The notes under the pieces were generated by a model. That model made no database searches, was not told the origin of the DNA, and was given only the letters and a program-made list of their open reading frames with translations. DNA of 49,910 nt from IMG/VR virus record IMGVR_UViG_3300037418_001222; one strand, given 5' to 3'. The position numbers and the translations under genes were made by a program. This document shows positions 20,466 through 48,616 of this stretch, in pieces. Within the stretch, counting starts at the first letter, position 1. Each line of letters begins with the position of its first letter. The stretch comes from a virus. Taxonomy: Duplodnaviria > Heunggongvirae > Uroviricota > Caudoviricetes.

Positions 20466-20542
20466 TGGCGCGCCTGGTGGGACTCGAACCCACAACGCAT
20501 GCTTTTAGAGAGCACCGCTCTAACCAATTGAGCTACGGGCGC
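20466..20542 (-). tRNA. amber suppressor tRNA (anticodon CUA)
   Basis: GCGCCCG acceptor; anticodon stem GTGCT/AGCAT with loop CT-CTA-AA; GTGGG-TTCGAGT-CCCAC T arm; GCCA end. Confidence 0.85.
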
Positions 20543-21163: not shown

Positions 21164-21251
21164 ACGGGCTCTCTTTTTGCTCCAATAGCAAAAGCCTAAA
21201 GCGACTTTTATAGGAATCGAACCTATTATAAGAGTTTGCTGAACAGAGCCC
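21164..21251 (-). ncRNA. Y-RNA-like family member 1 (permuted mini tRNA elbow)
   Basis: GGGCTCT-GTTCAGCAA ... AGAGCCC-GT; cargo ATAGG-TTCGATT-CCTAT T arm, AAAAG/CTTTT stem, GCT-ATTGG-AGC. Confidence 0.75.
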
Positions 21252-21260
21252 AAATTTTAT

Positions 21261-21361
21261 CAGGTTCCCTTTTTTGCAACGGGAATTGAACCCGCAACGT
21301 CTGAGTAAAAGTCAGATGTGTATCCATTACACTTTGCTAAAAGGTTTGATGTAAGGAACCT
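21261..21361 (-). ncRNA. Y-RNA-like family member 2 (CCA-less tRNA-Lys(UUU) body)
   Basis: AGGTTCC-TTACATCAA ... GGAACCT-G; cargo has a D arm, TCTGA-CTTTTAC-TCAGA and GCGGG-TTCAATT-CCCGT. Confidence 0.75.
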
Positions 21362-21400
21362 ATTTTCATACCTTCCGGGAGCTACCCATCTAGTACACTT

Positions 21401-21432
21401 CTATATATACCAAAATTCTAGATTAATGTCAA
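21401..21432 (-). promoter_or_regulatory. sigma70-type promoter
   Basis: TTGACA-17-TATATA(TAG) upstream of ncRNA 2, ncRNA 1 and the two tRNAs. Confidence 0.7.
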
Positions 21433-21783: not shown

Positions 21784-21912
21784 ACAGGTTCGTCTTGTTG
21801 CTACGTGCGCTACCATTACACCAAAGTCCCGCAAAATATGGTGGGACCCCTAGGATTCGAACCTAGACCACGACTATCCAAAAGTATGCAAAAGGGTTGC
21901 TGAATCGAACCT
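21784..21912 (-). ncRNA. Y-RNA-like family member 3 (YrlA-like circularly permuted tRNA domain)
   Basis: AGGTTCG-ATTCAGCAA ... CGAACCT-GT; cargo T arm CTAGG-TTCGAAT-CCTAG, GGGTCCC-ACCA-linker-GGGACTT, D arm GTGT-AATGGTA-GCGC. Confidence 0.82.
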
Positions 21913-21927
21913 AAAACTCAGAATTAA

Positions 21928-22090: not shown

Positions 22091-23509
22091 TTAACGGAAG
22101 TCATACCTCTCGGTCATTACTGTCTTACGCATGATTCCCTCAGGAGTCATGTTGTTCAGGTCCGCAGACAGAACAGACTTCATGATCGATGGGCTGAAAC
22201 CAGAGACTAGAGCAGTTCCAGTTTCATCGAAGGTTACAGGAACATTGCCATGAGCGTTGATGTTCCAGAAGACGATGGCTGGTACTTCATATCCAGCATT
22301 CTCATAATCATTTCTGATCATTTCGACTGCTCGAGCATCAGGACGGCAACAATTGAACTGCATATCCGACATGATTAGAAGTGCGGTTGGCATCTCTTCC
22401 TGAGGAACATCCTTGTCACATGCGACCTGAAGAATCTTCTTAAGAGCCTTCTGGAGGTCGGTACTCATACTCCAGTTAGACTTAGCCATAGTGTTATAAC
22501 GCTGAGACAGAGTTCCCTTAACGGTCACGAACTCAGGAGAGCTGGAGAACGTTAGGAAAACATCTTTAAAGTCACCAGTGTTCTTGCTTGCGCAATATAG
22601 ACCAAGTGACACCGCAACGTCAAGGCATGATACGGTTACACCCTTCGCTCCATAGCCTCCGGCTGGGCAGGTCATAGAACCAGAGACGTCTACTAGAGGT
22701 AGAACACGAGCATCACCAATGTAGTTTGGTAGAGCTTCCCACTGAGCATCGGCCACAGACGAATCACCATACCTAACGGTCTTGATGACGTCATATGGAT
22801 ACACTGCTCCGGCGTTTACCTTCGCAACCTTTGGATCACCCTTCTTCAGAGCGGCCTTCCATGCCTCGAAGTGAGCTGGAGCGTGCTTCTTGAATGCCTT
22901 CGTGTAACGAGACATAGCAAGAGATGGTACGTGATTGAAGTTAATAGCCTCGAACTCACGGTTACACATAAGAGTTTCGACGACCTGAGTTAGAGACACA
23001 AGAGTCTTACGGTACTGCTTAGGTGAGAAGTGCATGAACTCACGGAGTTCGCGAGCTAGAGCACCCTTACGAGGCATCCACTTAGCGCAGAGACCATTTC
23101 CGTCACGCAGAGCATCACGGATTAGACTATATGCGACTTCCTTCACTTCACGAGTAGAGAATACGAGCAAGTCATCCCAACGACCAAGCTCTGGAACCTT
23201 ACGAAGAAGATTCGTCTCAGTCAAGAGGTTTGGCTTAACCTTCTCAAGGTGACGAAGAACGTCACGGAAAAGCTTACGCTCACCGGTGCCCTGGCGCACA
23301 TCTCGACCATGGAGAGCGATACGGACAGCTAGATCGGAATCCTCGATGAGAGCTAGATCGAATAGCTGAGTAATGTCCTTACCACGAGAAGCACCAAGCT
23401 TACCGAATAGATCGACGTTGGCGCGACAGGTAGACTCAAAAGCCTTCATGCCATTGGTGGTACGAGTCTTCTTTGGAGTGTTACGAACTGCATTTGCGAA
23501 AGTAGTCAT
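22091..23509 (-). CDS. DUF2828-family Ro60/TROVE-like protein with C-terminal vWA domain
   Basis: TTNG, RDVRQGTGER, GRWDDL, AKWMPR, VPSLAM; vWA MIDAS DVSGSM, SDMQF, IVFWN, SGFS. Confidence 0.88.
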   Translation of the reverse strand: MTTFANAVRNTPKKTRTTNGMKAFESTCRANVDLFGKLGASRGKDITQLFDLALIEDSDLAVRIALHGRDVRQGTGERKLFRDVLRHLEKVKPNLLTETNLLRKVPELGRWDDLLVFSTREVKEVAYSLIRDALRDGNGLCAKWMPRKGALARELREFMHFSPKQYRKTLVSLTQVVETLMCNREFEAINFNHVPSLAMSRYTKAFKKHAPAHFEAWKAALKKGDPKVAKVNAGAVYPYDVIKTVRYGDSSVADAQWEALPNYIGDARVLPLVDVSGSMTCPAGGYGAKGVTVSCLDVAVSLGLYCASKNTGDFKDVFLTFSSSPEFVTVKGTLSQRYNTMAKSNWSMSTDLQKALKKILQVACDKDVPQEEMPTALLIMSDMQFNCCRPDARAVEMIRNDYENAGYEVPAIVFWNINAHGNVPVTFDETGTALVSGFSPSIMKSVLSADLNNMTPEGIMRKTVMTERYDFR

Positions 23510-23862: not shown

Positions 23863-23871
23863 TAAAAGTAT

Positions 23872-23947
23872 TGGAGCGGATAGCGAGAATCGAACTCGTC
23901 TCCATGCACGGTTTGGAAGACCGGCTGCATACCCTATGCTTACCCGC
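23872..23947 (-). tRNA. tRNA-Gly(UCC)
   Basis: GCGGGTA/TATCCGC acceptor, loop CT-TCC-AA, U73-CCA. Confidence 0.88.
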
Positions 23948-23959
23948 TCATTAGGATTA

Positions 23960-23990
23960 ACTATATATACTCGTCTCCAATAAATGTCAA
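23960..23990 (-). promoter_or_regulatory. sigma70-type promoter for the tRNA-Gly / ncRNA / DUF2828 unit
   Basis: TTGACA-17-TATATA(GT). Confidence 0.72.
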
Positions 23991-48539: not shown

Positions 48540-48616
48540 TGGTCAGGGTGGAAGGAATCGAACCTTCACCTCGGGGGTCCAAGCCACCGATTTCTCACCG
48601 CCTAAACTACACCCTG
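48540..48616 (-). tRNA. tRNA-Pro(UGG), second divergent copy
   Basis: CAGGGTG/CACCCTG, loop CT-TGG-AC, ACCA. Confidence 0.82.

What the first reader, a model, noticed from the sequence alone, without database searches (positions are those of the whole stretch)
21261..21361. Complete tRNA-Lys(UUU) body without CCA, capped by the Y-like stem: candidate anticodon-nuclease decoy
Seen: D arm (GTGT-AATGGAT-ACAC), anticodon arm (TCTGA-CT TTT AC-TCAGA), variable loop and T arm occur in normal order. The acceptor stem continues into the family closing stem and there is no CCA, so it cannot be aminoacylated as encoded. No normal tRNA-Lys(UUU) occurs in this window. Established: tRNA-Lys(UUU) is the target of the anti-phage anticodon nucleases PrrC and PARIS AriB. 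Inference: a protein-stabilised, non-chargeable decoy or inhibitor; alternatively a precursor matured by RNase P and CCA addition.
Basis: partly seen in the sequence, partly recalled or inferred. Interest (0 to 1): 0.85.

Follow-up and report, generated by a model that had tools for sequence, protein, structure and literature searches.

The report
Phage tRNA mimic lacking acceptor end
This phage gene looks like a lysine tRNA but is a tRNA-shaped RNA whose amino-acid-carrying end is replaced by a handle that probably docks on the phage's Ro60-like ring protein; the design recurs in many phages beside a normal tRNA with the same anticodon, and most likely serves as bait for bacterial enzymes that attack tRNAs, which nobody has tested.

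Summary
The element (minus strand, 21361-21259) is real, but it is not a tRNA-Lys that merely lacks CCA. It belongs to a phage RNA subfamily (27 aligned members): a covarying 7-bp closing stem and CAGCAA handle hold a tRNA body with D, anticodon, variable and T arms in normal order and only a 3-bp acceptor stub. It lies 730 nt downstream of a DUF2828 gene whose model matches Ro60. Three syntenic orthologues read UUC, UUU and UUG; the wider set reads mostly UCU; near-identical phages differ by one anticodon base. All four complete relatives also encode a normal CCA-ending tRNA with the same anticodon. Those working tRNAs mostly carry atypical anticodon stems (10/42 bacterial-type 31:39 pair); the mimics do not (16/17). 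Best reading: a non-chargeable, Ro60-like-protein-bound decoy for host tRNA-targeting defence enzymes (identity about 0.9, decoy function about 0.45, untested). The narrow PrrC/AriB claim is weak: C38 breaks the AriB site and the t6A determinant.

The parts
21259..21361 (-). Whole Y-like tRNA mimic, about 100 nt (true ends not mapped)
   Evidence: CM R1 100.6 bits (window row was in the training set); fold z -3.08; orthologues L001:6931-7032, L002:7365-7466, L081:8022-8123
21355..21361 (-). Closing stem, 5' strand
   Evidence: 5 of 7 pairs show double changes, 98.9% of cells paired
21262..21268 (-). Closing stem, 3' strand, followed by the invariant G at 21261
21346..21351 (-). Family handle, here CATCAA (consensus CAGCAA), unpaired; inferred binding site of the Ro60-like protein
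   Evidence: 25 of 27 members CAGCAA; TTCAGCAA 8 times in window against 2.0 expected
21335..21337 (-). Acceptor stub, 5' strand (tRNA positions 5-7)
   Evidence: a Watson-Crick partner of positions 66-68 lies here in 27 of 27 members; positions 1-4 pair in only 4-8 of 27
21276..21278 (-). Acceptor stub, 3' strand (positions 66-68), followed by an A-rich linker instead of NCCA
   Evidence: this strand was part of the search pattern
21318..21332 (-). D arm with A14, A15, U16, G18, G19
   Evidence: 4 of 4 pairs with double changes
21300..21316 (-). Anticodon arm; UUU at 21309-21307; A31-U39; C38 at 21305
   Evidence: 5 of 5 pairs with double changes, 100% paired; identical to Bacillales tRNA-Lys arm except position 38
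21279..21299 (-). 4-nt variable loop and T arm
21404..21432 (-). TTGACA-17-TATATA promoter-like site; the mimic is the first RNA downstream
   Evidence: 3 such sites in the window, all before tRNA or ncRNA blocks, 0.01 expected; same site before all three orthologues
21378..21387 (-). Conserved leader motif GGGTAGCTCC, role unknown
   Evidence: kept in L001, L002, L081; otherwise in 1 of 349 loci
22091..23509 (-). DUF2828/DUF7788 (ROT/TROVE-like) gene, 472 aa; inferred partner protein
   Evidence: Pfam; phrog_850 RNA-binding protein; AlphaFold model pLDDT 76 whose 12 best PDB matches are all Ro60 (best E 1e-9, TM 0.56, 16% identity)
21164..21251 (-). Next family member on the same transcript (handle, T arm, two hairpins)
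   Evidence: syntenic in L001, L002, L081

Best explanation
A phage non-coding RNA of the CAGCAA-handle (Y-like) family in which the handle replaces the outer acceptor stem of a tRNA. SHOWN by comparison: closing stem, D, anticodon and T stems are kept by compensatory change; the acceptor is cut to 3 bp with no CCA; the RNA travels with the Ro60-fold DUF2828 gene; it coexists with a normal tRNA of the same anticodon; its anticodon switches. INFERRED: it is made early from the sigma-70-like promoter, trimmed to about 100 nt, bound and protected by the ring protein through the stem plus handle, and never aminoacylated. It presents an L-shaped D/anticodon/T surface that soaks up host anti-phage enzymes recognising whole tRNA bodies (anticodon nucleases or modifying toxins), as bait or poorly cut competitive inhibitor, while the phage's working tRNAs escape through altered anticodon stems. 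In this phage clade the loop always starts U34-U35 (Lys, Glu, Gln), so the target is more likely an enzyme acting on that group than one strict for tRNA-Lys. Probability about 0.9 for the identity, about 0.45 for identity plus decoy function.
For: Three syntenic orthologues with the same promoter and neighbours keep all arms but only 3 acceptor pairs in two of them, and read UUC, UUU, UUG. A scan of IMG/VR anchored on the T arm and 3' linker only (no handle, D arm or anticodon arm in the pattern) gave 32 hits, 30 of which carry the handle and all arms; of 54 hits in bacterial and archaeal genomes only one is a member. Alignment A2: 96.3% of cells paired, 19 of 24 pairs with double changes, 0 of 500 shuffles, slid controls 30-46%; RNAalifold finds the same four helices unaided. 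0 of 27 have CCA; 14 of 27 lack the position 8-9 connector. DUF2828 gene in 13 of 20 mostly fragmentary contigs found without it, 2 of 2 complete ones, against 4 of 117 control loci. 4 of 4 complete genomes hold one mimic and a CCA-ending tRNA with the same anticodon. A31-U39 or C31-G39 in 52 of 55 bacterial tRNA-Lys(UUU)/Arg(UCU), 16 of 17 mimics, 10 of 42 working phage tRNAs. Loop is tRNA-like in all: U33 27/27, A37 27/27, U34 24/27 against 44% in phage tRNAs. At least 9, by parsimony 12, anticodon changes; L076 and L212 (94-99% identical flanks) differ at one base of 101, in the anticodon. AriB contacts both anticodon arm and D-loop U16 (PMC12409363), a reason for a whole-body mimic.
Against: Hosts are unknown, so 'bacterial-type' comes from 40 arbitrary genomes, and members are related, so the Fisher P (6e-7) overstates the case. 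For UCU the mimics' commonest pair (A31-U39, 8/14) is rare in bacterial tRNA-Arg (2/25); their stems look more like tRNA-Lys stems. The window copy has C38, found in no tRNA-Lys(UUU) or Arg(UCU) matched in 40 genomes, and a mutated handle, so this copy may be a poor mimic. All published phage tRNA counter-defence works through functional, resistant or abundant tRNAs (PMC11464382, PMC11555353); inhibition by competition is only suggested (PMC12409363). One anticodon-only difference between near-identical phages is a single event.
Confidence: 0.45

Rival explanations
1. Ordinary Y-RNA role: the tRNA fold is a stable tether or gate that links the Ro60-like ring to host PNPase or another nuclease for RNA quality control or repair; the anticodon is incidental and drifts.
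For: Y RNAs tether Rsr to PNPase, and D. radiodurans Yrn1 has a tRNA-like domain with an anticodon-position arm (PMC4201824). Phage phiLo Ro60 and its Yrls bind and dampen host PNPase (PMC12135203). Ten different anticodons could mean weak constraint.
Against: The loop stays 7 nt with Y32, U33, A37 in all 27, with U34 in 24 and UCU in 13 (3% of phage tRNAs). YrlA tethers do without an anticodon arm. No Rnl2-type RNA ligase in five carrier genomes although controls rang; the Rnl1 search was uninformative.
Confidence: 0.22
2. The mimic targets the translation machinery rather than defence enzymes: a sponge for a synthetase or wobble-modifying enzyme, a CCA-less ribosomal A-site ligand that blocks the stringent response, or a sentinel whose cleavage switches the ring protein on.
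For: Real anticodon loops and an intact elbow. U34-U35 loops in this clade are those of 2-thio-modified tRNAs (own knowledge). TsaBD reads only the D stem and anticodon loop, not the acceptor (PMC13276492). The neighbourhood holds an amber tRNA and other translation-related genes.
Against: Synthetases and modifying enzymes are conserved targets, which does not explain repeated anticodon switching or the contrast with the working tRNAs. A bound 52-kDa ring would hinder ribosome entry (inference).
Confidence: 0.14
3. Narrow first-reader version: a dedicated bait or inhibitor of the tRNA-Lys(UUU) nucleases PrrC or PARIS AriB.
For: UUU anticodon; arm identical to Bacillales tRNA-Lys except position 38; U16, U39, C40, A41 as in AriB substrates (PMC12409363); UUU arose in three places on the tree. 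An uncut mimic could still inhibit.
Against: C38 breaks UAAU and the t6A determinant; L002 has the resistance change A39; the closest orthologue (85% identical partner protein) reads UUC with the same C38, typical of tRNA-Glu, so UUU here may be one point change from a Glu-type loop.
Confidence: 0.08
4. Precursor: RNase P and 3' nucleases release a 73-nt tRNA that receives CCA and works as tRNA-Lys.
For: In this copy 6 of 7 acceptor pairs can form and A73 is the lysine discriminator (own knowledge); L081 also has 6 of 7. M. smegmatis YrlA is cut by RNase P and gains CCA (PMC4201824). Relative G022 encodes a CCA-adding-type enzyme.
Against: Positions 1-4 pair in only 4-8 of 27 members; L001 and L002 cannot form the stem; a 7-bp acceptor is a major RNase P determinant (PMC4201824). 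A8, A4.A69 and C38 make a poor decoder. 15 of 16 window tRNAs and 797 of 821 in related loci encode CCA. A normal tRNA-Lys(UUU) exists in G022.
Confidence: 0.06
5. The family is functional but this copy is decaying.
For: It alone has CATCAA, A8-A9 and a UUU loop with C38.
Against: All 24 family pairs still form, with compensatory changes against its orthologues at 71-74% identity; promoter and leader are intact.
Confidence: 0.05

Closest known systems
Deinococcus radiodurans Yrn1 with Rsr (PMC4201824)
   Same: Terminal protein-binding stem at the acceptor position, with D-like, anticodon-position and T arms inside; gene next to a Ro60-fold protein.
   Different: Yrn1 has a metazoan-type Ro60 helix, a 6-nt loop, no V arm and a doubtful D arm. 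This RNA has a CAGCAA handle, a covarying D arm, a true 7-nt anticodon loop that switches, and a DUF2828 partner with 12-18% identity to solved Ro60 proteins.
YrlA/YrlB Y RNAs (Rfam RF02553; PMC4201824) and Thermus phage phiLo Yrl1/Yrl2 (PMC12135203)
   Same: About 100 nt, stem plus unpaired 5' motif, tRNA-like D and T arms, several RNAs within a few kb of a Ro60-fold gene on the same strand, found in phages.
   Different: YrlA is circularly permuted (T arm before D arm), mimics the acceptor side and lacks an anticodon arm; its motif is GNCGAAN0-1G. No Rfam Y-RNA match here even at E 10.
Phage counter-defence tRNAs: T5 tRNA-Lys(UUU) against PARIS (PMC11464382, PMC12409363), tRNA-Tyr and tRNA-Lys against retron-Eco7 and PrrC (PMC11555353), predicted resistant phage tRNAs (PMC10264068)
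   Same: Phage-encoded tRNA bodies in the arms race with tRNA-cutting defences; strong promoter.
   Different: Those are chargeable tRNAs that replace the lost host tRNA. This RNA lacks the acceptor end, coexists with such a working tRNA and tends to keep the stem pair that working tRNAs have changed.
ROT/TROVE proteins of jumbo phages (PMC7824862)
   Same: Same protein class; proposed platform for RNA repair with a tRNA-like partner.
   Different: No partner RNA is described for the phage proteins in the passage read; carriers tested here lack an Rnl2-type ligase.
Dictyostelium Class I RNAs (PMC7919456)
   Same: Short covarying terminal stem, an 11-nt unpaired motif beside its 5' strand, variable interior, 3' end CUGU (most members here end CUGUU).
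   Different: Eukaryotic, about 60 nt, no tRNA cargo, DUSE promoter. The motif letters are in a figure and could not be compared; no Rfam match.

Membership tests
Functional tRNA-Lys (RF00005) | D, anticodon and T arms with G18G19, U33, purine 37 and T-loop | tested here: met
Functional tRNA-Lys (RF00005) | 7-bp acceptor stem | tested here: not met
   6 of 7 weak pairs here (probability about 0.17-0.23); only 3 bp conserved in 27 members
Functional tRNA-Lys (RF00005) | U8 and A38 (36-UAA-38) | tested here: not met
   A8 and C38; no non-A38 Lys(UUU)/Arg(UCU) match in 40 genomes; 17 of 17 working phage tRNA-Lys have A38
Functional tRNA-Lys (RF00005) | Encoded CCA | tested here: not met
   0 of 27 members; 15 of the other 15 window tRNAs have it
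Functional tRNA-Lys (RF00005) | Processed and aminoacylated in vivo | not testable with these tools
YrlA-type Y RNA (RF02553) | Within 4 kb of a Ro60-fold gene, same strand | tested here: met
   730 nt from the DUF2828 gene; model matches Ro60
YrlA-type Y RNA (RF02553) | GNCGAAN0-1G motif near the 5' end | tested here: not met
   no CGAA in the element; motif is CAGCAA
YrlA-type Y RNA (RF02553) | Permuted order T arm, acceptor-like stem, D arm; no anticodon arm | tested here: not met
   normal order with anticodon arm; no Rfam match
Y RNA in the broad sense | Binds the Ro60-fold protein through its terminal stem region | not testable with these tools
   co-occurrence only
Yrn1-type Y RNA | Binding stem at the acceptor position with arms in tRNA order | tested here: met
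   against PMC4201824
Yrn1-type Y RNA | Metazoan-like Ro60 helix, 6-nt loop, no V arm | tested here: not met
   CAGCAA handle, 7-nt loop, 4-5 nt V loop
AriB substrate (E. coli B185 PARIS) | U36-A-A-U39 with C40|A41, and U16 | tested here: not met
   U16, U39, C40, A41 present but C38; L002 has A39 (PMC12409363). The effect of C38 on AriB is not measured in that paper.
PrrC substrate | UUU anticodon with t6A37 | tested here: inconclusive
   UUU present; C38 predicts no t6A (PMC13276492); modification not measurable here
Dictyostelium Class I RNA | Terminal stem plus adjacent 11-nt motif and CUGU end | tested here: inconclusive
   architecture alike; motif letters not in the text; no Rfam match

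The most novel reading that the evidence does not exclude
Large phages encode a dedicated class of non-chargeable tRNA decoys, held on a Ro60-like ring through a shared handle, that titrate or inhibit bacterial tRNA-targeting immunity; the anticodon is re-aimed by point mutation, and each decoy is paired with a nuclease-resistant working tRNA of the same anticodon.
Probability: 0.4. Interest if true: 0.87.

Novelty: new variant of a known kind. Interest (0 to 1): 0.7.

Why it matters
If true, it adds a second, RNA-based way for phages to beat tRNA-cutting immunity (bait rather than replacement), gives the uncharacterised DUF2828 ring protein (matches in 710 phage records) a ligand and a job, and offers a testable answer to what the tRNA-like domain of Y RNAs is for. 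The anticodons on display (mostly UCU; also UUU, UUC, UUG, UCA) would point to which tRNAs bacterial defences attack in nature. Practically, some members are called tRNAs by ARAGORN (window, L001, L081) and so distort phage tRNA counts and codon-usage arguments. A cultured phage (Stenotrophomonas DLP_6) carries an unannotated variant, so the idea can be tested now.

Tried and rejected
blastn against cultured phages found no homologue of the window element. phmmer against PDB found nothing for the partner, and a single-sequence fold was useless (pLDDT 39); the 55-sequence fold worked. The promoter scanner missed the TTGACA-17-TATATA site because it requires T at the last position. A scan for CAGCAA upstream of a D arm returned mostly ordinary tRNAs: only one new locus passed the closing-stem test, which shows that the stem is not a by-product of having CAGCAA near a tRNA. 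The first acceptor-pair count picked wrong registers and was redone. Energy models do not favour the 3-bp stub and RNAalifold omits it; it rests on GCA/TGC against GTA/TAC covariation. The Rnl1 search rang in no control and proves nothing. Paper searches for DUF2828 with RNA, Y RNA with phage, and phage tRNA decoys found no description of this RNA; subscription journals are not covered. No complex prediction was sent, because that tool does not score RNA partners.

Full report
1. The observation. The element lies on the minus strand at 21361-21259 of a T4-like phage window (DNA polymerase, UvsX-like and helicase genes). D arm, anticodon arm (UUU), 4-nt variable loop and T arm are in normal order; ARAGORN calls tRNA-Lys and Rfam tRNA scores 57.3 bits. 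It is the only one of 16 ARAGORN tRNAs in the window without encoded CCA. A 7-bp stem closes the whole RNA (z -3.08, 0 of 200 shuffles). The acceptor helix is imperfect (A4.A69, three terminal U-A pairs with about 0.17 pairing probability) and position 8 is A. An internal loop holding the motif CATCAA separates the acceptor from the closing stem. And the lack of a normal tRNA-Lys(UUU) is probably a window-edge effect: the tRNA array at the window's end has the same order as in the complete relative G022, where tRNA-Lys(UUU) with CCA follows 1.4 kb after tRNA-Lys(CUU), beyond the point where the window stops.

2. Surroundings. The RNA is the first one after a TTGACA-17-TATATA site, of which the window has three, all before tRNA or ncRNA blocks (0.01 expected). 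730 nt upstream ends a 472-aa DUF2828 gene. Its model from a 55-sequence alignment (pLDDT 76) has Ro60 proteins as its 12 best PDB matches (best E 1e-9, TM 0.56, 16% identity). Several neighbouring small RNAs share the same type of stem and the motif TTCAGCAA (8 in the window, 2.0 expected). ROT/TROVE proteins are noted in jumbo phages as likely RNA-repair platforms with a tRNA-like partner (PMC7824862).

3. Orthologues decide the anatomy. The two closest relatives by partner protein (L001, 85%; L002, 72-76%) and a third found by pattern (L081) have the element at the same place, after the same promoter and a conserved leader motif, before the same next RNA and tRNA-Pro. All have the CAGCAA handle. 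Their anticodons are UUC, UUU and UUG. L001 and L002 cannot form acceptor pairs 1, 2 or 4; L081 forms 6 of 7 but has a one-base connector.

4. A subfamily. A scan of IMG/VR with a pattern covering only the T arm, the 3' stub and the end of the closing stem gave 32 hits; 30 carry the handle, D arm and anticodon arm, none of which was in the pattern. The same scan of 185,579 prokaryote genomes gave 54 hits and one member, so the RNA is viral. In an alignment of 27 members 96.3% of cells pair, 19 of 24 pairs show double changes, no shuffle of 500 reaches this and slid controls give 30-46%; RNAalifold recovers closing, D, anticodon and T helices unaided. Related sequences can beat such shuffles, and the inner T-stem pairs were fixed by the pattern, but the D, anticodon and closing stems were not. 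Acceptor positions 5-7 have a partner in all 27; positions 1-4 pair in 4 to 8 of 27; none has CCA; 14 have no connector between stub and D stem. The partner gene is on 13 of 20 mostly fragmentary contigs found without using it, and on both complete ones, against 4 of 117 control loci. Looser variants with other linkers occur in further loci and in the cultured Stenotrophomonas phage DLP_6, unannotated, with anticodon UUC. This rejects the reading as a precursor for the family and makes it unlikely (about 0.06) for this copy.

5. What the anticodon arm says. The loop is always 7 nt with U33 and A37; U34 occurs in 24 of 27 against 44% in ordinary tRNAs of these phages, and UCU in 13 against 3% (members are related, so no P value is trusted). 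Ten anticodons need at least 9, by parsimony 12, changes on a weakly resolved tree built without the anticodon. L076 and L212, with 94-99% identical flanks, differ at one base of 101, UCU against UUU. Four complete genomes each have one mimic and also a CCA-ending tRNA with the same anticodon, so the mimic does not fill a decoding gap. The 31:39 pair is A-U or C-G in 52 of 55 bacterial tRNA-Lys(UUU) and tRNA-Arg(UCU) genes, in 16 of 17 mimics, but in only 10 of 42 working phage tRNAs; 13 of 25 working tRNA-Arg also have C38 against 1 of 14 mimics. Changes next to the loop are how phage tRNAs are thought or shown to escape nucleases (PMC10264068; PMC12409363). Working copies look as if they avoid recognition and the mimics do not, which is what a bait predicts. 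Caveats: hosts are unknown, and the UCU mimics' commonest pair is that of bacterial tRNA-Lys, not tRNA-Arg.

6. The PrrC/AriB claim. The window arm equals the Bacillales tRNA-Lys arm except for C38. No tRNA-Lys(UUU) or Arg(UCU) with another base than A at 38 was matched in 40 genomes, whereas C38 is common in tRNA-Glu and is shared with the UUC and UUG orthologues. AriB targets share U36-A-A-U39, and A39, as in L002, abolishes cleavage (PMC12409363). t6A needs 36-UAA-38 (PMC13276492), and PrrC is reported to need t6A. So neither UUU copy in this clade looks like a cleavable PrrC or AriB substrate, though an uncut mimic could inhibit. What the clade keeps is U34-U35, the Lys/Glu/Gln group with 2-thio wobble bases (own knowledge), which includes the RloC target tRNA-Glu (own knowledge). 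AriB's contact with D-loop U16 shows why a whole body could be a better bait than a bare hairpin.

7. Mechanism. Shown: structure under selection, loss of the acceptor end, linkage to the Ro60-fold gene, coexistence with working tRNAs, anticodon switching. Inferred: early expression, binding to the ring through stem and handle, no charging, titration of host tRNA-targeting defence enzymes. I put the identity at about 0.9 and identity plus decoy function at 0.45. Rivals: a generic Y-RNA tether for PNPase or repair (0.22; five carriers lack an Rnl2-type ligase), a sponge, sentinel or ribosome ligand (0.14), a Lys-specific PrrC/AriB bait (0.08), a precursor (0.06), a decaying copy (0.05).

8. Relation to what is known. 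It works like a Y RNA beside a Ro60-fold protein and has the topology of D. radiodurans Yrn1, but fails the YrlA tests (no GNCGAAN0-1G motif, not permuted, no Rfam match) and differs from Yrn1 in handle, D arm and true anticodon loop. It is not a functional tRNA by acceptor, U8, A38 and CCA. Known phage counter-defence tRNAs are chargeable replacements (PMC11464382, PMC11555353). I found no paper on the RNA. Earlier notes of this scan describe the CAGCAA family and bare anticodon hairpins on this and other genomes; these are unchecked leads, not support, and none of those shown describes the acceptor-less whole-body form.

9. Verdict. Observation partly confirmed, interpretation partly supported. 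A new variant of the Ro60/Y-RNA kind: a real and widespread non-chargeable tRNA mimic with a plausible, untested anti-defence role. Interest 0.70.

Noticed in passing
window 21378-21387 (-); L001:6906-6915, L002:7340-7349, L081:8139-8148: Leader motif GGGTAGCTCC between the promoter and the mimic is kept in all four syntenic phages while flanking leader bases differ; otherwise in 1 of 349 loci. Possibly a processing or antitermination signal.
   Followed up: partly
L350:16928-17021 (KU682439.2:104927-105020): Cultured Stenotrophomonas phage DLP_6 carries an unannotated handle-plus-tRNA-body RNA with anticodon UUC and a DUF2828 gene 9.5 kb away: a ready test system.
   Followed up: partly
L202:3228-3330, L204:11617-11719, L220, L014:4708-4801, L015: Several mimics display UCA, which would read the opal stop or selenocysteine codon; unexplained.
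   Followed up: no
working tRNAs in L001-L080, L204-L232, L287-L294: Working phage tRNA-Lys(UUU) have G31-C39 in 14 of 17 and tRNA-Arg(UCU) have C38 in 13 of 25, both rare or absent in the bacterial sample: a candidate escape signature against unknown nucleases.
   Followed up: partly
window 20466-20542 (-); L001:7538, L002:7955, L294:8155, L291:7679, L293:409: An amber (CUA) tRNA is syntenic in the close relatives and common in DUF2828-carrying phages.
   Followed up: no
G022:C1:106533-106901: The complete relative encodes a CCA-adding/poly(A)-polymerase-family protein (PF01743) although all 33 of its array tRNAs encode CCA; it may repair trimmed 3' ends.
   Followed up: no
window about 23870-23950 (-): A tRNA-Gly(UCC)-like gene with CCA after the promoter at 23990 is missed by ARAGORN and Rfam (odd D arm, longer variable region), while its orthologues in L001 and L002 are called normally.
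   Followed up: no
window 48540-48616 (-): ARAGORN calls a tRNA with an unreadable anticodon ('tg'); the syntenic gene in G022 is tRNA-Pro(UGG).
   Followed up: no
window 21784-21913 and 21164-21251 (-): Two circularly permuted (T arm first) members of the same handle family flank the mimic and are syntenic in L001 and L002.
   Followed up: partly
L036:889-1004, L037:1197-1318, L039:4697-4818, L045:4792: Other architectures on the same handle: an extra 5' hairpin before a tRNA body (UGU, AAU), and an RNA that starts with a bare UAU anticodon arm followed by T arm, stem and D arm.
   Followed up: no
L239:1556-1659: The only member among prokaryote genomes sits on a 20-kb contig of an Aquiluna MAG, near a tRNA-like hit; probably phage DNA binned with the MAG, and at most a weak host hint.
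   Followed up: no
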